Part shown: piece after piece, positions 1,739 to 6,082 of the stretch
Layout: each line of letters begins with the position of its first letter
How positions within the stretch are numbered: position 1 is the first letter of the stretch
Source of the DNA: a virus
Taxonomy: Duplodnaviria > Heunggongvirae > Uroviricota > Caudoviricetes
Length of the DNA stretch: 9,877 nucleotides
Virus record (IMG/VR): IMGVR_UViG_2531839661_000013
Span: 1 to 9,877 of that record
Strand: one strand, 5' to 3'
Made by a program: the position numbers and the translations under genes
Notes under the pieces: generated by a model
Databases searched by the model: none
What the model was told of the DNA's origin: nothing
The model's input: the letters and a program-made list of their open reading frames with translations, nothing else

Positions 1739-1945
1739 ATGGAAGCAATCAAAAAAGTCATCTTTCGCCAGGAAGTAAAAAAACTTATCCACATTAAGGC
1801 AGACAGCACGCTGCAAAGCATGATCAACGCCGGAGAATTCCCGCAGGGTTTTCGTGTCGGTTTGCGCCGTCGCGGATGGTATGAGGAAGACGTAATCGCA
1901 TGGATGAAAGAACGCGAACAAGAAGCGCGCGGAACGACCGCTTAA
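1739..1945 (+). CDS. alpA: AlpA-family phage/satellite transcriptional regulator (MerR-like HTH)
   Basis: 68-aa protein with the AlpA pattern: hydrophobic segment plus HTH (VIFRQEVKKLIHIKADSTLQSMINAGEFPQ), then GxRxxGWxEEDVxAWM. RBS GAGG sits 9 nt upstream. Confidence 0.85.
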   Translation: MEAIKKVIFRQEVKKLIHIKADSTLQSMINAGEFPQGFRVGLRRRGWYEEDVIAWMKEREQEARGTTA

Positions 1946-1970
1946 CATATATAGGGCAAATGATGAACAT

Positions 1971-1998
1971 AAAAAAAGCGGCCCCGAAATGGAGCCAC
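1971..1998 (-). terminator. putative intrinsic terminator for the leftward small-gene cluster (weakly bidirectional)
   Basis: On the minus strand: GGCUCC-AUUUC-GGGGCC (6-bp stem with one G-U pair), then GC and a U7 run. Lies between the convergent alpA and the 2067-2270 gene. Confidence 0.4.
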
Positions 1999-2066
1999 CT
2001 TTCTGAACAATTAACCCGCTGCGCCGTATGTGTCAACAATCATAAGCCCGGGCATGATAACCGCGA

Positions 2067-2270
2067 TCAGGCTGGTGGGCAATTATCTTGCTTGTTGGGG
2101 CCGTATTGTGCTGCCATTTTCATCCGTTCAGAACGTGAATATTTTTTTAGAAACTCATCAAGGACAAAAGCGCATGGTGCGAATCTTTCTGATTCATGCT
2201 CGAACGCCATATTTTCGTGCTCTCTGTTCGTTTTTTGCGATGGTGTATTGGTTGATTCTTTGTTGGTCAT
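2067..2270 (-). CDS. hypothetical small protein (67 aa), module-2 partner, paralog of the 2616-2843 product
   Basis: Begins ATGACCAACAA (MTNK...), identical at nucleotide level to the start of ORF 2616-2843. N-terminal pattern P-x-Q-x-T-x-x-E-x-E is shared between the two. Preceded by the conserved leader. Confidence 0.5.
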   Translation of the reverse strand: MTNKESTNTPSQKTNREHENMAFEHESERFAPCAFVLDEFLKKYSRSERMKMAAQYGPNKQDNCPPA

Positions 2271-2323
2271 TGTGTGTACCTGTAAAGCAATGCGCCGGAG
2301 TTCCTCACGCCACGGCGCTGATG
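2260..2323 (-). promoter_or_regulatory. conserved leader / translation-initiation element, copy 2
   Basis: 45-bp core (2279-2323) matches 2852-2896 at 42 of 45 positions. Contains the dyad GCGCCG-N15-CGGCGC. The 11-mer TTGTTGGTCAT (reverse complement ATGACCAACAA) at 2260-2270 is identical in both copies. Confidence 0.55.
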
Positions 2324-2327
2324 TTTT

Positions 2328-2501
2328 TTATCCTTTGGGTTCAATACCGCGTTGCTGTAATTCTTTTCGGAGTACTCGCTTGATCCAGGTGGCTAAAGAA
2401 GTGTCACCGTCTGCTTTCGCTGCCTCTTCAAGTTGTGCTCTGAATTCTTCTGGTAGCCGCATTTGGTATGGAGGCGATCGCTTTTCCAATGGTGTTGACA
2501 T
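2328..2501 (-). CDS. Arc/MetJ-type ribbon-helix-helix DNA-binding protein (57 aa)
   Basis: Hand translation of the minus strand gives MSTPLEKRSPPYQMRLPEEFRAQLEEAAKADGDTSLATWIKRVLRKELQQRGIEPKG. The segment RLPEEFRAQLEEAAKADGDTSLATWIKRVL is a classic RHH beta-strand, helix, turn, helix pattern. AAGGG lies 8 nt before the ATG. Not in the supplied ORF track because it is under the length cutoff. Confidence 0.7.
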   Translation of the reverse strand: MSTPLEKRSPPYQMRLPEEFRAQLEEAAKADGDTSLATWIKRVLRKELQQRGIEPKG

Positions 2502-2541
2502 GGTAATTACCCTTAATTACTATAGTTACATGGTAATTACC
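2502..2541. promoter_or_regulatory. putative operator: two perfect 10-bp palindromes GGTAATTACC
   Basis: GGTAATTACC at 2502-2511 and 2532-2541, 30 bp centre to centre, with a third TAATTAC half-site at 2514-2520. Immediately upstream of the Arc-like gene, overlapping its RBS and a candidate -10 (TATAGT on the minus strand). Confidence 0.5.
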
Positions 2542-2560
2542 ATTGTACTTACCGTTATAC

Positions 2561-2596
2561 AAAAAACAACGCCCCGGAAACGGAATAATCCGTTTC
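2561..2596 (-). terminator. possible terminator/insulator between module 1 and module 2
   Basis: Perfect 8-bp hairpin GAAACGGA-N4-TCCGTTTC (2577-2596), followed on the minus strand by CGGGGCGTTGTTTTTT. The U-run starts about 10 nt after the stem, so this is not a canonical terminator. Confidence 0.3.
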
Positions 2597-2615
2597 ATAG
2601 TTCCGTTTTGTGTAC

Positions 2616-2843
2616 TCATCCTGGCGGGCGATTCTTACGGGACTTTAGCCGCCGTGGGCAGCTTGCTAAAAATGCCTCCAACGCGAATAGTCCTGGTTTC
2701 ATTTCTATCGGTATTAGTTGGATATTCAGAGGATTAGCCAGTTCGGCTTCAAGGCGAGCACAGGTTTCTAACTGCCTTTGCCGAATGATTTCATCTTCTT
2801 GCGTCTGCGTGTCTTGTATTGGTAATAGTGTGTTGTTGGTCAT
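2616..2843 (-). CDS. hypothetical small protein (75 aa), module-1 partner, paralog of the 2067-2270 product
   Basis: Begins ATGACCAACAA (MTNN...). Weak RBS (CAGGG) lies inside the conserved leader. C-terminus is basic (RRLKSRKNRPPG). Confidence 0.5.
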   Translation of the reverse strand: MTNNTLLPIQDTQTQEDEIIRQRQLETCARLEAELANPLNIQLIPIEMKPGLFALEAFLASCPRRLKSRKNRPPG

Positions 2844-2896
2844 GGTACTGCCCTGTAAAGCAATGCGCCGTAGTACCTCACGCCACGGCGCTGATA
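2833..2896 (-). promoter_or_regulatory. conserved leader / translation-initiation element, copy 1
   Basis: Paralogous to 2260-2323 with the same GCGCCG-N15-CGGCGC dyad. Sits between the stop of the RHH gene (2901) and the start of ORF 2616-2843. Confidence 0.55.
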
Positions 2897-2900
2897 GTGA

Positions 2901-3080
2901 TTATTCTGATTCTTTGGCCTTGCGACGCTGGCGGCGTTTGATTTCGCCGCGCATGGCAGTAACGATAAATTGTGCGTCTGTTTCGTTTTCTTCTTTTACC
3001 AAATTCATTTCGCTTAAAACGTCTAGAGGTACTCTAGCAGTTTTTTGTTGTGACTTGTTGTTGGTTGTACCTGTTGGCAT
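2901..3080 (-). CDS. putative ribbon-helix-helix-like DNA-binding protein (59 aa)
   Basis: Internal ATG of the 107-aa track ORF, preceded by a perfect AAGGAG with 7-nt spacer. Product MPTGTTNNKSQQKTARVPLDVLSEMNLVKEENETDAQFIVTAMRGEIKRRQRRKAKESE has an RHH-like strand-helix-helix pattern and a basic tail. The N-terminal extension in the track would run across the operator dyads. Confidence 0.5.
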   Translation of the reverse strand: MPTGTTNNKSQQKTARVPLDVLSEMNLVKEENETDAQFIVTAMRGEIKRRQRRKAKESE

Positions 3081-3103
3081 CTCTGTTCTCCTTACTGTTA
3101 GGT

Positions 3104-3207
3104 GGTGTTCAGTATACGGAGAAAAAAAAATAAAAAAAGACTTGAAGTGCAAGTCACCTAAAAGTAACCTAGATTTCAAGGTGACTTGCACCAAAAAACA
3201 ACGCCCC
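3104..3207. promoter_or_regulatory. divergent control region with 13-bp inverted repeats and an A-tract
   Basis: Inverted repeat GTGCAAGTCACCT (3147-3159) / AGGTGACTTGCAC (3179-3191). Nested hairpin GACTTG-AAGTG-CAAGTC (3139-3155). A9-T-A7 tract at 3122-3138. Candidate leftward -10 TATACT (minus strand, 3111-3116). Shared 15-mer AAAAAACAACGCCCC at 3193-3207. Confidence 0.45.
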
Positions 3208-3264
3208 ACAGTGCTGGAACACATGCAGGGCGTCTAACCACAAACACTATAGAGAGGTAAATTT

Positions 3265-3459
3265 ATGGTTGCCGTAAATCATACCCCACGACTAGCACAC
3301 ACACAAACGGCCTTTGTGTGGCGTTTTCTGGCACTGAGTGCCGGAGAATCTCAAATCATCCACGTAACCGCCTGGACGGAACGCGAAGCGCGTAGCCGTT
3401 GCCCGTCCGGTTGTGTCGCTGTATTTGCCGCCCGTATTCGCCAGGGGGTAGGCTTATGA
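3265..3459 (+). CDS. small protein, possibly Icd-like host cell-division inhibitor family
   Basis: 64 aa, RBS GAGAGG 7 nt upstream. Motif AFVWRFLALSAG...VTAWTEREARSR...VAVFAARIR resembles the short Icd-like proteins found upstream of primases in P4-like elements. Family assignment is from memory of the pattern and is not verified. Confidence 0.5.
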   Translation: MVAVNHTPRLAHTQTAFVWRFLALSAGESQIIHVTAWTEREARSRCPSGCVAVFAARIRQGVGL

Positions 3460-3689
3460 GCCAGGAAATCACACTACAACAGGCAGCAGAACGCGCCCAC
3501 CAAATCGAAGTTATTTGCGCACTGGCAGAGGATTACCCTGGCATGATGACCGACAGCGAATCAGGGGCAATCATCGGCTTACTTAAACGCCTTAGCGGTG
3601 AGGTCTGCGTATTCCTGAGCGATGAACAGGAAAGAAGAACGCTTATTTCTAACGAAAAAAAATGCGGAGGGGTACACCATGTGCAATAA
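3456..3689 (+). CDS. hypothetical protein (77 aa)
   Basis: ATG at 3456 overlaps the upstream stop (ATGA). RBS AGGGGG 7 nt upstream. First of a run of translationally coupled genes. Confidence 0.55.
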   Translation: MSQEITLQQAAERAHQIEVICALAEDYPGMMTDSESGAIIGLLKRLSGEVCVFLSDEQERRTLISNEKKCGGVHHVQ

Positions 3690-3939
3690 AACCACACCGG
3701 ACGCAGCCGCCGAAGCCATCAAAACGCTGATGCACGCGCTGATTGATATTTCTGTTATCGCGGACAGGGCACATAAGCACGCCACCAGCGAAACAGAATA
3801 TGCCGGGGCTTTCGTTCCTCACTCACTGGCTGTTATGCAATTTAGTGCTGATATGGCACTGAATGAGGCTAAAACCATCCTGATTACTGATTGTGAAAAT
3901 GGGGGGGGGTTATGCGTGATGATCGTTTTAATTCCCTGA
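3679..3939 (+). CDS. hypothetical protein (86 aa); reading frame crosses a G9 homopolymer
   Basis: ATG 3679 with RBS GGAGGGG. The C-terminus (ENGGGLCVMIVLIP) is translated through the G9 run at 3901-3909, so its 3' end and length depend on the tract length. Confidence 0.45.
   Translation: MCNKTTPDAAAEAIKTLMHALIDISVIADRAHKHATSETEYAGAFVPHSLAVMQFSADMALNEAKTILITDCENGGGLCVMIVLIP
3901..3909. repeat. G9 homopolymeric tract at a gene junction
   Basis: Nine consecutive G directly seen at 3901-3909. The run serves as the Shine-Dalgarno for the ATG at 3912 and lies inside the 3' end of the preceding ORF. Confidence 0.9.
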
Positions 3940-4145
3940 AACAAGAATTTTCCGGCGTTCCTGATGATGCGGCTGATGCGCTTTCGTCAATGCCAGAACT
4001 TATTAGAGCGGCTTTTTTCTTACTTTCCACGAAAGAATATAAATCAACGGGACTTGATGTACTGAATATCGCCGCCGATTATGCGGAATATGTGGCAGAG
4101 GCGCGTTACAGAAGAAAATTTCCTGAGGATGTAAGCCATGCGTGA
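3912..4145 (+). CDS. hypothetical protein (77 aa)
   Basis: ATG 3912 is two nt downstream of the G-run. Acidic, helical-looking sequence with no recognisable motif. Confidence 0.5.
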   Translation: MRDDRFNSLKQEFSGVPDDAADALSSMPELIRAAFFLLSTKEYKSTGLDVLNIAADYAEYVAEARYRRKFPEDVSHA

Positions 4146-4371
4146 TATTTACATTGAAACAATAGACCGCGCATTTAGTGCCCTTGCTTACGCTGAAGGT
4201 ATGTACGAAATATTGCAAATGTGGCTGGAAACATTTGACGATAATGAGCGTGATGTAAAGAAGGCGCGGATTATTAAATCACTGATAACTCTCCTTGAAC
4301 CTGTAATAACAGAGTTGCAGGAAATAGACTTATTGCACGACAGATATAACGAACAGCACACCGGAGAATAA
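4138..4371 (+). CDS. hypothetical protein (77 aa)
   Basis: Start overlaps the upstream stop by 8 nt. Acidic helical protein. Confidence 0.55.
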   Translation: MRDIYIETIDRAFSALAYAEGMYEILQMWLETFDDNERDVKKARIIKSLITLLEPVITELQEIDLLHDRYNEQHTGE

Positions 4372-4376
4372 AAATA

Positions 4377-4676
4377 ATGAAACTTAAATATTCTGGCTTA
4401 ACTGCCAGTGGCAACACTCACCCTAAATTTACGCGCGGTGATATTTACCGCGACCAGTACGGCGGCACGGTAATGATTAAGGGCGTGGCGGGACGGTGCG
4501 TAACTTACCGCCGTGAAGGTTACGAATATGATTGCGTGATGCCTGTTTATCAGTTCCGGCGTGATTTTTCTCTGGTACAGACCGCGCCGCATAACGTGCC
4601 CACCAGCAACGCCAGGGCACGGGCAAACATCCAGAAGCTGAAAACCATGATTAACGGATTCAGGAGTAAAAAATGA
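4377..4676 (+). CDS. hypothetical protein (99 aa)
   Basis: RBS GGAG upstream. Its stop overlaps the primase ATG (ATGA at 4673-4676). Confidence 0.55.
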   Translation: MKLKYSGLTASGNTHPKFTRGDIYRDQYGGTVMIKGVAGRCVTYRREGYEYDCVMPVYQFRRDFSLVQTAPHNVPTSNARARANIQKLKTMINGFRSKK

Positions 4677-6082
4677 AACTGGCACCGAACGTAAAACTAT
4701 TACCGAAAGATAAATACACCGATGCGATTATTTTTGCGGGTATTGATGCTCACTCATTCGCAGAGCATTACATCATTGCACAGGCCAAAAAAGCAGGCGA
4801 TCCAGTCCCTCCCGTTTATCTGGGGCGTTATCAGTTAAGCGAACTGGATAACCTCCAGATTGTTGATGATGGGCGATACAGGGCGACGGTGATACGCGCC
4901 GGAAATATTGAAGAGCCGCAGCTGTTAACCATCGCCACGAAACTGGCGATCGCCGGAGTCCAGGAGGCGCGGCTACTTTCTGAAAATTTCGAATTGCTGG
5001 AGGAATGGAGCGACCAGCTTCCACGGCTTAGGGAGGCATGGGAACGCGGGGAAAGCCTGGTCATGAAAAAAATCCCCCAGCGAAAAACCACGCTACCGAT
5101 GAGCGTTGGATCTACCGGATACGACACACAGCTTGATTACGTGGTAAAGGGGATTATTCCGGCATCGTCGCTTTGCAGCATATACGGGGCGAGCGGTTCC
5201 TATAAATCATTCCTTGCCGGATCGTGGGCGTGTCACGTTTCCACGGGCCGCCAGTGGGGAGGCCGCAGGGTGGCGCATGGCGCTGTTCTCTATGTGGTTG
5301 GTGAAGGCGGTATCGGCGTTCCGCGTCGTGTAAAAGCCTGGGAGGTTGTGCACGATGAGCAGGTGAAAAATCTGTATCTGGTAAACCGTCCCATCTTTCC
5401 GGCGGTCCCGCTTGATGTTGATGAAATGGTTATCGCTGCCCGTCAGGTGGAGCGGGAAACGGGTAAACCTGTACGCATGATTATTCTGGATACGCTGGCG
5501 CGTTGCTTTGGTGGCAATGATGAAAATGATTCCCGTGATATGGGGGCATTTATCCGTGGTTGTGACGAACTGAAACGACGCACAGGGGCTACGGTGCTGG
5601 TGGTTCACCATTCCGGCAAGGATGAGACGAAAGGCGCGCGTGGTTCCAGTGCATTTCGTGCATCACTGGACGCTGAATACCGGATACGCAGGGAGGACGC
5701 AGGAAGCGAAGCGCTGGTTATCTCATGCACCAAAATGAAGGACGCGGAGGAACTCAAAGAAGCCGCATATGACTTACGCGTGGTGGAGCTGTTTACCGAC
5801 GCTGACGGGGAGTTAATCACGTCGCTGGTGGTGGTGGATAAGCCGCGTCCTCCCGTTGAACTGGAGCGCATCGAAGAGGCTGGCAACAAGACGGAGAATC
5901 ATGCTGCGCTATGGGGATGTATCCGGTCACGCACACAGCACGGCGACAAGTGCACGATCCCGCTGTTACGTGACGATATGAAAAAGCTGGGGTACGAAAT
6001 GAAAAACTTCAGCCGCTGGCTACGCAAGCTGGAAAAAGACGCCGTTATTTATATCGACGGTGATGATGTAGGCCCTCTGTAA
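4673..6082 (+). CDS. satellite replication protein: RecA-fold ATPase (RepA/DnaB-like), primase/helicase-like
   Basis: 469 aa. P-loop YGASGSYKSF at 5183-5212 (variant Walker A, GxxGxYKS). Walker B-like hhhhD (MIILDTLA) and downstream VLVVHHSGKDE...GSSAF, typical of RepA-like replicative ATPases. RBS AGGAG 6 nt upstream. An iteron array follows immediately. Confidence 0.8.
   Translation: MKLAPNVKLLPKDKYTDAIIFAGIDAHSFAEHYIIAQAKKAGDPVPPVYLGRYQLSELDNLQIVDDGRYRATVIRAGNIEEPQLLTIATKLAIAGVQEARLLSENFELLEEWSDQLPRLREAWERGESLVMKKIPQRKTTLPMSVGSTGYDTQLDYVVKGIIPASSLCSIYGASGSYKSFLAGSWACHVSTGRQWGGRRVAHGAVLYVVGEGGIGVPRRVKAWEVVHDEQVKNLYLVNRPIFPAVPLDVDEMVIAARQVERETGKPVRMIILDTLARCFGGNDENDSRDMGAFIRGCDELKRRTGATVLVVHHSGKDETKGARGSSAFRASLDAEYRIRREDAGSEALVISCTKMKDAEELKEAAYDLRVVELFTDADGELITSLVVVDKPRPPVELERIEEAGNKTENHAALWGCIRSRTQHGDKCTIPLLRDDMKKLGYEMKNFSRWLRKLEKDAVIYIDGDDVGPL

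What the first reader, a model, noticed from the sequence alone, without database searches (positions are those of the whole stretch)
2067..3207. Tandem paralogous two-gene modules: RHH protein, conserved leader, small MTN protein
The leftward cluster is two copies of the same architecture. Module 1 is a putative promoter with 13-bp inverted repeats, a 59-aa RHH-like protein (3080-2901), a conserved leader, and a 75-aa protein (2843-2616). Module 2 is GGTAATTACC operators, a 57-aa Arc-like protein (2501-2328), the conserved leader again, and a 67-aa protein (2270-2067). The four proteins have diverged almost beyond recognition, while the ~64-bp leader with the first four codons is about 93 percent identical. 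That points to selection or gene conversion acting on the non-coding element. In a satellite, a leftward locus like this is where immunity and helper-interference functions would be expected (compare P22 immI arc/ant or P4 epsilon), but these proteins match nothing I recognise.
Basis: partly seen in the sequence, partly recalled or inferred. Interest (0 to 1): 0.85.

Follow-up and report, generated by a model that had tools for sequence, protein, structure and literature searches.

The report
Repeated regulatory cassettes in phage satellite
Two neighbouring copies of a [quoted passage not shown] cassette sit in the control region of an E. coli phage satellite; the leader occurs in about a third of complete E. 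coli genomes, and the opposite strand of the whole region is kept free of stop codons, which suggests a switch mechanism not described before.

Summary
The window is an E. coli phage-inducible chromosomal island (PICI) at tRNA-Pro. Between alpA and the Icd-like gene lie two leftward cassettes. Each has an RHH gene, a 57-nt leader, a 67-75-aa protein and a terminator. The paired proteins are not recognisably similar, but the 44-nt leader cores are 95% identical.

The leader is not private to this element. It occurs in 1668 of 5426 complete E. coli genomes, up to three times per island, always directly 5' of a small gene of one family (motif FALExFL plus a basic tail). It consists of a hairpin supported by covariation and by G·U pairs on the leftward RNA, then AUUGCUUUAC, a weak Shine-Dalgarno sequence and the ATG. 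RHH types and small-protein types are freely reassorted around it. The two modules are therefore recombined cassettes, not a local duplication, and nothing points to gene conversion.

An unexpected result: a 445-codon rightward ORF (1900-3237) runs antisense to the whole cluster, where about 14 stops are expected and none is seen. In 94 distinct relatives, open rightward frames cover a median 99% of the alpA-to-icd interval, and in most they run in frame into the Icd-like domain. Its protein sequence evolves like non-coding DNA, so only openness is selected. Likeliest reason (inferred): AlpA-driven transcripts must be translated across the cassette to avoid Rho termination.

The parts
2901..3080 (-). 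RHH1, a 59-aa YlcI/YnfO-family ribbon-helix-helix protein (first gene of cassette 1)
   Evidence: NF041551 E 4.7e-17, 61.7 bits against a cut-off of 30. phrog_949 E 8.8e-19. PGAP names it WP_001142000.1 YlcI/YnfO. SD AAGGAG lies 7 nt before the ATG. In 59-aa relatives, replacements are conservative in this frame (BLOSUM62 -0.12) but not in the antisense frame (-1.10).
2844..2900 (-). Leader 1, the 57-nt intercistronic element: hairpin 2891-2865, AUUGCUUUAC, SD AGG 2854-2852, then a 7-nt spacer before the ATG at 2843
   Evidence: MFE hairpin; covariation. No Rfam family matches it.
2616..2843 (-). ORF75, a small protein of the FALExFL family (second gene of cassette 1); PGAP does not annotate it in this genome
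   Evidence: Nine homologous clusters, all E. coli and all 'hypothetical'. The C-terminal motif LFALEAFL..PRRLKSRKNRPPG is shared with paralogues in L125-L127. In the last 26 codons about half of the differing codons are synonymous and differences concentrate at codon position 3.
2560..2600 (-). Leftward intrinsic terminator of cassette 1; its tail GGGGCGTTGTTTTTTG is identical to the one at 3207-3192
   Evidence: (repeat D3).
2502..2541 (.). Two GGTAATTACC palindromes (2502-2511, 2532-2541), likely RHH2 operators. They interleave with a rightward sigma-70-like site (TTGACA 2495-2500, TACTAT 2518-2523), and the first abuts the RHH2 start codon (2501-2499)
   Evidence: D2, I3; 10/12 promoter match on the + strand. 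The operator role is an inference.
2328..2501 (-). RHH2, a 57-aa Arc-like ribbon-helix-helix protein (first gene of cassette 2)
   Evidence: phrog_228 'Arc-like repressor' E 4.9e-7. Pfam Arc 16.5 bits (cut-off 20.4) and NF041551 20.1 bits (cut-off 30), both below cut-off.
2271..2327 (-). Leader 2, the 57-nt intercistronic element: hairpin 2318-2292, SD AGG 2281-2279
2067..2270 (-). ORF67, a small protein of the FALExFL family (HESERFAPCAFVLDEFLKKY; second gene of cassette 2)
   Evidence: phrog_21027 E 2.4e-12. Fifteen homologous clusters, all E. coli 'hypothetical'. The AF2 model has three helices, with the motif helix at pLDDT 85-92. No PDB fold match.
1966..2003 (-). Leftward intrinsic terminator of cassette 2; the U-run is on the - strand only
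   Evidence: z -2.8.
1900..3237 (+). ORFX, a 445-codon rightward ORF antisense to both cassettes. Alternative starts are ATGATG at 1960-1965, behind AGGG and just after the alpA stop. It ends 27 nt before the Icd-like ATG and is in the same frame as that gene
   Evidence: 0 internal stops against 13.7 expected; 0 of 20000 simulations reached 1 or fewer. (control genes carry 2.5 stops per 100 codons in the equivalent frame). for the family; no protein-level constraint.
3122..3192 (-). 13-bp inverted repeat that folds as a 14-bp hairpin followed by U-runs, upstream of RHH1. It could be an operator or a terminator/attenuator; its role is unresolved
   Evidence: I2; z -5.7.
3192..3272 (-). Candidate cis-antisense small RNA opposite the Icd-like ribosome-binding site and start. 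The loop of hairpin 1 carries the anti-SD ACCUCUC; hairpin 2 is a terminator
   Evidence: MFE -30.4, z -5.07; weak SymR-like hit, 25.9 bits, E 0.18, below the gathering score. Its existence as an RNA is an inference.
1739..1945 (+). alpA-like HTH regulator; ORFX follows it
   Evidence: Phage_AlpA E 0.003, PGAP HTH regulator. The activator role of AlpA in EcCICFT073 is from PMC6092414.
3265..3459 (+). Icd-like gene, the first conventional gene of the rightward operon
   Evidence: NF033153 E 5.3e-18.

Best explanation
SHOWN. The region is the control zone of an AlpA-type E. coli PICI. It holds two leftward cassettes drawn from a pool that recombines across the PICI family. Each cassette has a promoter/operator, an RHH DNA-binding protein (YlcI/YnfO type or Arc-like), a conserved 57-nt leader, a 57-82-aa helical protein with the motif [FY]xL[ED]xF[LV] plus a basic tail, and an intrinsic terminator. 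The leader forms an RNA hairpin in the leftward transcript. The hairpin starts 9 nt after the RHH stop codon. It is followed by the almost invariant single-stranded stretch GC|AUUGCUUUAC, a weak SD (AGG), a 7-nt spacer and the ATG.

INFERRED, leader. The leader is the translation-initiation and intercistronic processing/stability element of the small gene. The hairpin would protect or attenuate the 3' end of the RHH message, and the weak SD downstream would give low, separately tunable expression of the small protein. GC|AUU fits the RNase E motif. Because it is conserved, the leader also serves as the joint at which RHH/operator specificities and small-protein types are exchanged by homologous recombination.

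SHOWN, opposite strand. The rightward strand of the whole zone, from alpA to the Icd-like gene, is kept free of stop codons in one frame. That frame evolves without any protein-sequence constraint.

INFERRED, opposite strand. AlpA-activated transcripts from P_alpA must cross 0.7-2.9 kb of antisense cassette to reach the Icd-like and replication genes. They are kept translated so that Rho does not terminate them. Convergent leftward transcription, and the fully complementary leftward mRNAs it produces, would oppose this read-through. Together the two directions would form the off/on switch of the island.
For: Element identity: int, alpA, RepA helicase, PerC and a ClpP-capsid fusion lie between tRNA-Pro and yejO.

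Leader distribution: 2708 places in 1668 of 5426 E. coli genomes, and none in 50,697 phage records. In 131 copies from IMG/VR there is always a stop codon 9 nt before the hairpin and an ATG 48 nt after its first base. Arrays of two or three leaders each precede a small gene.

Hairpin: 94% of cells are paired. Four pairs change on both sides (shuffles reach this in 3 of 500). Seven cells are compensatory (0 of 500). Slid controls give 24-56% paired. The wobble pairs are G·U on the leftward RNA, including G20·U32 in 41 of 48 sequences.

Mosaicism: 4 RHH types by 4 small-protein types, nearly all combinations present. Tandem islands share the order ORF75-type then ORF67-type but carry different RHH genes.

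Leftward genes are real: HMM hits, conservative replacements in their frame only, synonymous and third-position excess in the ORF75 tail, and a flip of AT skew.

ORFX: 0 stops against 13.7 expected, while the other + frames carry 20 and 38. Control genes carry 2.52 stops per 100 codons in the equivalent frame. Across 119 distinct contexts the frame is open for a median of 333 codons, against 6-40 in the other frames. In 94 distinct alpA-to-icd intervals the median cover is 99%, and 88 of 94 are covered 90% or more. An ATG, often with an SD, lies 12-60 nt after the alpA stop. In most relatives ORFX runs in frame into the Icd-like domain. Of 150 cluster representatives of the Icd-like family, 94 are long proteins with the domain at the extreme C-terminus, and 77 of these have no Pfam domain in the extension. 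The same layout is found in LR881103. Replacement quality and codon-position spread in ORFX look non-coding.

Precedent from established knowledge: translation of the nested eta/kil genes controls immunity-specific termination in satellite P4 (Forti et al. 1999, cited in PMC10111431). In P1, icd translation is needed for ant transcription.
Against: No expression data exist for any part: no transcript ends, ribosome footprints or RNase sites. Folding energy of the leader is only modestly better than shuffles (z -1.8 and -0.9). The covariation rests on about ten divergent copies. One A·C mismatch on the leftward strand would favour the rightward strand, and symmetrical changes would also fit a DNA palindrome. 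The leader's sequences are nearly all from E. coli, so phylogenetic depth is small; neither the leader nor the small protein was found in GTDB species representatives. No clear sigma-70 promoter was found for either leftward cassette. For ORFX, the + strand shows no C-over-G skew that would mark a strong Rho loading site. A separate promoter just upstream of the Icd-like gene would make read-through unnecessary. In the window ORFX and the Icd-like gene are separated by a stop codon. The function of the small proteins is unknown: no Pfam, PADLOC or PDB match.
Confidence: 0.5

Rival explanations
1. The leader has no RNA function. It is a 'boundary sequence' that survives only because recombinants with a breakpoint there are viable, as proposed for linker sequences between modules of lambdoid phages.
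For: Free reassortment of upstream and downstream types around the leader. A second conserved boundary at the terminator tails. Weak folding z-scores.
Against: Compensatory and G·U changes keep the stem paired. The unpaired GCAUUGCU stretch and the position of the SD are nearly invariant. Divergent islands keep the element in front of each of up to three consecutive small genes, which suggests it is used rather than carried along.
Confidence: 0.15
2. The palindrome GCGCCG-N15-CGGCGC is a DNA site for a dimeric protein (the RHH, AlpA, or Int/Xis) rather than an RNA hairpin.
For: The half-sites are invariant and the spacer is variable. Changes that preserve a palindrome look like covariation.
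Against: Six G·U-type departures on the leftward strand against one A·C. The stem extends through G·U pairs that are not palindromic in DNA. The site lies inside a transcription unit, between a stop codon and an SD. The RHH N-terminal regions differ widely between islands while this site stays the same.
Confidence: 0.1
3. Each cassette is a type II toxin-antitoxin or abortive-infection pair: the RHH is the antitoxin and autorepressor and the small protein is the toxin or effector. The leader only sets their ratio.
For: The gene order (RHH first, small partner second), palindromic operators at the promoter and a location on a mobile element.
Against: No toxin, antitoxin or defence HMM matches; the PADLOC scan gave only a weak Cas8g hit for ORF67 (E 0.0012, 16.7 bits) and no Pfam toxin family matched. 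The small proteins are short, charged helices with no known toxin fold. Arrays of three or four small genes exist without an RHH gene beside each. TA pairs are usually translationally coupled rather than separated by a 57-nt structured spacer.
Confidence: 0.12
4. ORFX is a conventional protein-coding gene, i.e. a true antisense overlapping gene. Its product would be the N-terminal part of a long Icd-like protein, and that product itself is functional.
For: SD plus ATG right after alpA in several types. In-frame fusion to the Icd-like domain in most relatives and in 94 of 150 family representatives. Thirteen of 94 extensions carry a Phage_ASH domain.
Against: Replacements in the ORFX frame are as radical as in non-coding control frames. 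Variable sites are spread evenly over codon positions where ORFX overlaps no leftward gene. No family hit. Length varies from 216 to 765 codons with cassette content. In the window and in about 40% of relatives the extension is cut off from the Icd-like domain by a stop codon or a frame change.
Confidence: 0.12
5. The open antisense frame is a chance 'shadow ORF' produced by the codon usage of the leftward genes.
For: The frame in which third codon positions coincide is the most open antisense frame in general (control genes: 59 stops in that frame against 117 and 67 in the other two).
Against: Even at the control rate, 445 codons should carry about 11 stops, and about 14 are expected by resampling; 0 of 20000 simulations reached 1 or fewer. 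The non-coding parts are stop-free too (P = 0.0004). The property holds in 94 distinct intervals built from non-homologous cassettes.
Confidence: 0.02

Closest known systems
EcCICFT073 and other Gram-negative PICIs (Fillol-Salom et al. 2018, PMC6092414; zone model in PMC10111431)
   Same: The same element type and the same locus. CFT073 carries YlcI/YnfO, the leader and a 57-aa MTDKEL protein between alpA and the Icd-like gene. AlpA is the activator.
   Different: These leftward genes, the leader and the antisense ORF are not described in those papers. [quoted passage not shown] The window has two cassettes instead of one.
Phage P22 immI (arc-ant operon, Mnt, sar antisense RNA); from own knowledge
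   Same: A small RHH repressor gene comes first, with palindromic operators at the promoter. A second gene follows after a regulated intercistronic region. The locus lies apart from the main repressor.
   Different: The downstream gene is a 57-82-aa protein with no Ant, Bro or KilAC domain. No sar-like antisense promoter was found. The conserved structure is on the sense RNA. Here the whole locus is overlapped by a long antisense ORF.
Satellite P4 immunity (CI RNA with seqA/seqC; translation of the nested eta/kil genes controls termination) and P1 immI (c4-icd-ant). References are listed in PMC10111431; the content is from own knowledge
   Same: A satellite or phage early operon headed by an Icd/Kil-type small gene. 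Long and short in-frame nested reading frames. Translation of the promoter-proximal ORF decides whether transcription continues. The immunity determinant is embedded in that translated region.
   Different: No C4, CI or IsrK Rfam hit in the window. Here the embedded determinants are protein genes on the opposite strand. A link between translation and termination is inferred here, not shown. No sequence similarity to P4 was detected.
Type II toxin-antitoxin operons with RHH antitoxins (ParD, CcdA and RelB type)
   Same: An RHH gene first, a small partner second, and palindromic operators that suggest autoregulation.
   Different: No toxin family match. A 57-nt structured spacer with its own SD. 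Partners are reassorted freely.
Boundary or linker sequences of mosaic lambdoid phages (Juhala 2000; Clark 2001); from own knowledge
   Same: Short conserved DNA at gene borders, flanked by non-homologous modules, at which recombinants are joined.
   Different: The leader shows RNA-type covariation and contains the translation start signals.

Membership tests
Gram-negative (AlpA-type) PICI | Tyrosine integrase at one end, inserted at a specific chromosomal site | tested here: met
   Integrase at 1-1242 with Phage_integrase E 3.5e-29. The island lies between tRNA-Pro and yejO in NZ_CP146507.
Gram-negative (AlpA-type) PICI | alpA next to int, a replication module (primase or helicase), about 10-15 kb, no tail or lysis genes | tested here: met
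   alpA-like gene at 1739-1945, RepA/AAA_25 helicase at 4673-6082, and a ClpP-capsid fusion at 7453-9342. In the PGAP annotation of NZ_CP146507, the roughly 10-kb island between tRNA-Pro and yejO carries no annotated tail or lysis gene.
Gram-negative (AlpA-type) PICI | Induction and packaging by a helper phage | not testable with these tools
   Shown experimentally for the relative EcCICFT073 only (PMC6092414).
YlcI/YnfO family (NCBIfam NF041551) | Score above the curated cut-off of 30 bits | tested here: met
   RHH1 scores 61.7 bits, E 4.7e-17.
YlcI/YnfO family (NCBIfam NF041551) | The same cut-off applied to RHH2 | tested here: not met
   RHH2 scores 20.1 bits, below 30.
Arc/MetJ ribbon-helix-helix (Pfam PF03869) | Score above the gathering cut-off of 20.4 bits | tested here: inconclusive
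   RHH2 scores 16.5 bits, below the cut-off, but phrog_228 'Arc-like repressor' matches at E 4.9e-7. It is RHH-like, but membership of PF03869 is not established.
Type II toxin-antitoxin or known defence system | The partner protein matches a toxin or defence family | tested here: not met
   No Pfam toxin family matched at E <= 1, and the PADLOC scan gave only a weak Cas8g hit for ORF67 (E 0.0012, 16.7 bits).
Known RNA families (Rfam 15, including C4, IsrK and SymR) | Match at the gathering score over the leader or nearby | tested here: not met
   There is no hit over 2260-2335 or 2833-2907 even at E <= 1. The only nearby hit is SymR at 25.9 bits against a gathering score of 61, at 3197-3270.
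P22 immI-type arc-ant module | An antirepressor (Ant, Bro or KilAC domain) downstream of the RHH gene | tested here: not met
   ORF75 and ORF67 have no such domain.
P4/P1-type translation-gated early operon | A long ORF nested in frame with the Icd/Kil-type gene at the head of the operon | tested here: inconclusive
   Met in most relatives and in 94 of 150 family representatives. In the window the two share a frame but are separated by a stop codon 27 nt before the Icd-like ATG.
P4/P1-type translation-gated early operon | Translation of the upstream ORF prevents premature (Rho-dependent) termination | not testable with these tools
   Needs reporter or transcript assays with stop-codon mutants and Rho inhibition.

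The most novel reading that the evidence does not exclude
ORFX would be a 'spacer ORF': a reading frame 216-765 codons long that is selected only to stay translatable, not for its product. It would carry ribosomes across an antisense regulatory cassette so that AlpA-driven transcription reaches the Icd-like and replication genes without Rho termination. The convergent RHH cassettes would gate that passage, with the conserved hairpin leaders as structured contact or processing points in fully complementary mRNAs. This would be a protein-plus-antisense version of P4/P1 immunity and the missing 'repressor' logic of Gram-negative PICIs.
Probability: 0.35. Interest if true: 0.85.

Novelty: new variant of a known kind. 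Interest (0 to 1): 0.68.

Why it matters
Gram-negative PICIs are common; this leader alone marks 31% of complete E. coli genomes. They spread virulence and defence genes, yet how they stay silent and switch on is unknown: the literature names only the activator AlpA and no repressor.

This region holds the obvious candidates: diversifying RHH/operator pairs, a family of tiny partner proteins, and a shared RNA leader. It also shows a strong signal, reproduced across the family, that the opposite strand must stay translatable.

If the read-through and translation model is right, it links PICI induction to the translation-gated immunity of P4 and P1. It would also be a clear natural case of selection for an open frame without selection for a protein.

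A practical point: gene callers usually annotate the long antisense ORF (as 'Icd-like, incomplete', 'ash family' or 'hypothetical') and omit the small real genes. The small-protein family is therefore almost invisible in databases.

Tried and rejected
(1) Stop-codon read-through or one disrupted gene. All four ORFs share a frame and both spacers are 19 codons long, but the CFT073-type leader has an in-frame TAA and the genes have separate family signals. Rejected.

(2) A leader promoter on either strand. No acceptable -10/-35 pair was found by eye or by the scan.

(3) A trans-acting partner RNA in the window. Only scattered 9-10-nt complementarities, as expected by chance.

(4) A CsrA or GcvB target. 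Only loose resemblance by eye, not shared by all variants. Dropped.

(5) Taxonomic spread. The small-protein alignment and a loose leader pattern found nothing in 100,044 species representatives.

(6) A multiple-of-three indel test for ORFX. The alignments were swamped by spurious 1-nt gaps at mosaic junctions. Uninformative.

(7) GC skew as a sign of a Rho loading site. No C excess on the + strand.

(8) Structure of ORF67. Helical with moderate confidence (pLDDT 68.5) and no PDB match.

(9) PADLOC, Pfam and PHROGs on ORFX and ORF75. No hits for ORFX or ORF75.

(10) Homology of the Icd-like protein to P4 or P1 in the phage collection. The only hit was one PICI-like record.

(11) The Forti 1999 paper could not be read.


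Full report
WHAT THE WINDOW IS. The 9877-nt window matches E. coli strain 10 (NZ_CP146507) at 100%. There it forms an island of about 10 kb between tRNA-Pro/yejM and yejO. It encodes a tyrosine integrase (1-1242), an AlpA-like regulator (1739-1945), an Icd-like protein (3265-3459), several small rightward genes, a RepA-type helicase (4673-6082), a PerC-like regulator and a ClpP-protease/major-capsid fusion (7453-9342). This is the gene set of a Gram-negative phage-inducible chromosomal island (PICI) of the EcCICFT073 kind (PMC6092414).

CHECK OF THE OBSERVATION. Both intergenic spacers are exactly 57 nt. The repeat finder returns the leader pair, the perfect 13-bp inverted repeat upstream of RHH1 and the GGTAATTACC palindromes upstream of RHH2. 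The 44-nt core of the leader is 42/44 identical, the full spacer is 45/57, and core plus four codons is 54/63. The genes on either side are 60-62% identical at the DNA level, which equals the shuffled expectation of 58.8 +/- 1.9%. They give BLASTP E-values of 1.9 and 0.41.

THE PROTEINS. RHH1 is a YlcI/YnfO-family protein (NF041551, 61.7 bits against a cut-off of 30; phrog_949 at 8.8e-19). RHH2 is RHH-like (phrog_228 'Arc-like repressor' at 4.9e-7) but falls below the curated cut-offs of Pfam Arc and NF041551. ORF67 matches phrog_21027, a family of unknown function; ORF75 matches nothing. Collecting relatives showed that ORF75 and ORF67 belong to one family of 57-82-aa proteins. They have a variable charged N-terminal part, the motif [FY]xL[ED]xF[LV] and a basic tail: HESERFAPCAFALExFLKEY in one branch and FALEDFVDKYPRRLK..NRPPG in the other. 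All database homologues are E. coli 'hypothetical proteins' (15 and 9 clusters). An AlphaFold model of ORF67 has three helices, with the motif helix at pLDDT 85-92, and has no PDB neighbour. No defence or toxin family matches convincingly; the only PADLOC hit is a weak Cas8g match for ORF67.

Several lines show that the leftward genes are real. Amino-acid replacements among relatives are conservative in their frame (mean BLOSUM62 -0.12, -0.06 and +0.36 for three groups), but as radical as in non-coding control frames when read on the other strand (-1.10, -1.04, -0.82). In the ORF75 tail about half of the differing codons are synonymous and differences pile up at codon position 3. The AT skew flips sign across 2001-3200.

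THE LEADER IS A FAMILY-WIDE ELEMENT. A 75-nt leader query finds 2708 places in 1668 of 5426 complete E. coli genomes, including CFT073, O157:H7 and Nissle, and nothing in 50,697 phage records. An IMG/VR scan gave more than 119 loci. In the 131 copies analysed there is always a stop codon 9 nt before the hairpin and an ATG 48 nt after its first base. Upstream lie 44 distinct RHH proteins of four types (YlcI-type proteins of 59, 65 and 101 aa, and Arc-like proteins). Downstream lie the small proteins in four main types. Almost every combination occurs.

About one locus in ten has two or more leaders. In the tandem loci examined, which carry two canonical leader copies, the first cassette carries an ORF75-type gene and the second an ORF67-type gene, but the RHH genes differ from island to island. 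More distant islands have leftward operons of three or four small genes, most with a leader of their own and no RHH gene beside them.

Three conclusions follow. The conserved unit is 'leader plus small gene'. The window's two modules are recombined cassettes rather than a local duplication. Each of its two leaders carries the variant typical of its cassette type, so there is no sign of gene conversion between them. The exact 1.5-kb arrangement of the window is rare: 7 genomes.

WHAT THE LEADER IS. It is not translated by read-through, because an in-frame TAA is present in the CFT073 type. It matches no Rfam family. It folds into a 7-9-bp GC-rich hairpin with a variable 9-13-nt loop. On an alignment of 49 variants, 94% of cells are paired. 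Four pairs change on both sides (C-G to U-A by way of U·G, G-C to U-A), which shuffles reach in 3 of 500 cases. Seven cells are compensatory (0 of 500). Sliding the partner drops pairing to 24-56%. Departures from Watson-Crick pairing are G·U on the leftward RNA, with one A·C exception. This points to an RNA hairpin in the leftward transcript, not to the rightward RNA or a DNA palindrome.

After the stem comes the almost invariant GC|AUUGCUUUAC, then AGG at -10 to -8 and the ATG. The leader is therefore the translation-initiation region of the small gene joined to an intercistronic stem-loop. My inference is that it is a processing/stability and attenuation element that sets the ratio of RHH to small protein. 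GC|AUU fits the RNase E motif RN|WUU (from my own knowledge). Its conservation also makes it the recombination joint of the cassette system. Folding z-scores are weak (-1.8, -0.9) and the number of divergent copies is small, so the structure is supported but the mechanism is not shown.

THE OPPOSITE STRAND. All four leftward ORFs lie in one frame. The + strand carries a 445-codon ORF (1900-3237) antisense to the whole cluster. Resampling synonymous codons and shuffling the non-coding segments gives an expectation of 13.7 stops; none is observed and 0 of 20000 simulations reached 1 or fewer. The other + frames carry 20 and 38 stops. Other genes of the same island carry 2.52 stops per 100 codons in the equivalent antisense frame.

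The property holds across the family. In 119 distinct leader contexts this frame is open for a median of 333 codons (minimum 216), against medians of 6-40 codons for four of the other five frames and 76 for the frame of the leftward genes themselves. In 94 distinct alpA-to-icd intervals (688-2887 nt), open stretches of 100 codons or more cover a median of 99% of the rightward strand, with 88 of 94 at 90% or more. The leftward strand is covered at a median of 37%. The frame opens at or near the alpA stop, with an ATG 12-60 nt downstream and in several types a good SD, for example TAAaggggagcatATG. In most relatives it runs in frame into the Icd-like domain. Otherwise it typically stops within about 30 nt of the Icd-like ATG or overlaps it by 10 nt, with larger gaps in a few islands.

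In a search of 1.84 billion cluster representatives with the Icd-like protein as query, 102 of the best 150 matches are 150 aa or longer. Ninety-four of them carry the Icd-like domain at the extreme C-terminus behind an extension that is rich in Ser, Cys, Thr, Asn and Arg. Seventy-seven of those 94 have no Pfam domain and 13 have Phage_ASH. The induced element LR881103 shows the same layout: a YlcI-type RHH gene embedded antisense in a 324-aa ORF that ends in the Icd-like domain.

Yet the ORFX protein is not conserved as a protein. Its replacement quality equals that of non-coding frames. Where it overlaps no leftward gene, variable sites are spread evenly over codon positions: 7/7/7, 6/6/6, 26/26/26, 23/27/25. 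ORFX has no family match. PGAP labels such ORFs 'Icd-like, incomplete', 'ash family, incomplete' or 'hypothetical', and often omits the small leftward genes. The selection is therefore for an open frame, not for a product.

MECHANISM PROPOSED. These points are shown: the architecture, the conservation, the hairpin covariation, the mosaicism and the stop-free rightward frame. [quoted passage not shown] The rest is inferred. Induced transcription from P_alpA must cross the antisense cassette zone to reach the Icd-like and replication genes, and it is kept translated to escape Rho-dependent polarity. The leftward cassettes, whose terminators are one-directional, oppose it by convergent transcription and fully complementary mRNAs. 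The RHH proteins set the level of that opposition through their operators. The best sigma-70-like site of the region is in fact rightward and interleaved with the GGTAATTACC palindromes. Satellite P4 (translation of the nested eta/kil genes controls immunity-specific termination) and phage P1 (icd translation is needed for ant transcription) are precedents, from established knowledge; the references appear in PMC10111431.

Points against the model: the + strand shows no C-rich skew, an independent promoter for the Icd-like gene is not excluded, and there are no expression data.

COMPARISON AND NOVELTY. The cassette resembles P22 immI (arc-ant) and RHH-led toxin-antitoxin operons in layout but fails their membership tests, since there is no Ant, Bro or toxin domain. 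The read-through logic resembles P4 and P1 immunity, but there is no C4/CI RNA and the determinants lie on the other strand. Neither the leader, the small-protein family nor the antisense ORF is described in the PICI papers I could read or found by literature searches. I rate it a new variant of a known kind. It is a real, widespread and uncharacterised regulatory module, with one feature, selection for a translatable but meaningless frame, that would be unusual if confirmed.

LIMITS. Nearly all sequences are from E. coli, and searches of species representatives found nothing. Covariation rests on about ten divergent copies. Promoters of the leftward cassettes were not identified. The 13-bp inverted repeat may be a terminator or attenuator rather than an operator. 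The function of the small proteins is unknown.

Noticed in passing
window 1900-3237 (+): A 445-codon ORF antisense to all four leftward genes, with no stop codon where about 14 are expected. The same property holds in 94 distinct related islands. Its protein sequence evolves like non-coding DNA.
   Followed up: yes
window 3192-3272 (-): Candidate cis-antisense small RNA opposite the ribosome-binding site and ATG (3265) of the Icd-like gene. It has two hairpins (MFE -30.4, z -5.07), the anti-SD ACCUCUC in loop 1, a terminator at its end and a TATGAT -10-like box about 7 nt upstream. The only Rfam signal is a weak SymR-like hit (25.9 bits).
   Followed up: partly
window 3122-3192 (-): The '13-bp inverted repeat operator' folds as a 14-bp hairpin (z -5.7) followed by two U-runs. 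It looks as much like a terminator or attenuator in front of RHH1 as like an operator.
   Followed up: partly
window 2560-2575 and 3192-3207: A 16-nt exact repeat, CAAAAAACAACGCCCC on the + strand. It is the shared tail of two leftward terminators and a second conserved cassette boundary besides the leader.
   Followed up: partly
window 2495-2523 (+): The best sigma-70-like site of the region points rightward (TTGACA-17-TACTAT, 10/12) and is interleaved with the two GGTAATTACC palindromes. RHH2 may therefore control a rightward promoter that reads antisense through cassette 1.
   Followed up: no
window 2616-2843 (-); L003, L004, L005, L126, L130: Annotation artefact. PGAP omits ORF75 here. In relatives it calls the long antisense ORF 'Icd-like protein, incomplete', 'ash family protein, incomplete' or 'hypothetical protein', often in place of the small real genes.
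   Followed up: yes
Icd-like family (P0025-P0174): Of 150 cluster representatives with the Icd-like domain, 94 are long proteins (150-644 aa) with the domain at the extreme C-terminus. Seventy-seven of those have no Pfam domain in the extension and 13 have Phage_ASH.
   Followed up: yes
L132 (LR881103, vB_KppS-Ant) 3206-4180 (+) and 3813-3610 (-): A 16.5-kb induced element deposited as a phage has the same layout: a YlcI-type RHH gene embedded antisense in a 324-aa ORF that ends in the Icd-like domain. Here the RHH gene is monocistronic, with its own terminator and no leader.
   Followed up: partly
L126 2028-3017; L127 2565-3350; L125 2277-2987: Divergent islands carry leftward operons of three or four paralogous FALExFL-family small genes, most preceded by their own copy of the leader and without RHH genes beside them.
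   Followed up: partly
window 2901-2945 and relatives: The C-terminal tails of the RHH proteins (..RRQRRKAKESE in the YlcI type, ..LQQRGIEPKG in the Arc type) are conserved while the DNA-binding N-terminal parts vary. In all 131 copies the stop codon sits exactly 9 nt before the hairpin.
   Followed up: partly
window 7453-9342 (+), 6532-6804 (+): A ClpP-like prohead protease/major capsid fusion protein and a PerC-family regulator are encoded by the island.
   Followed up: no
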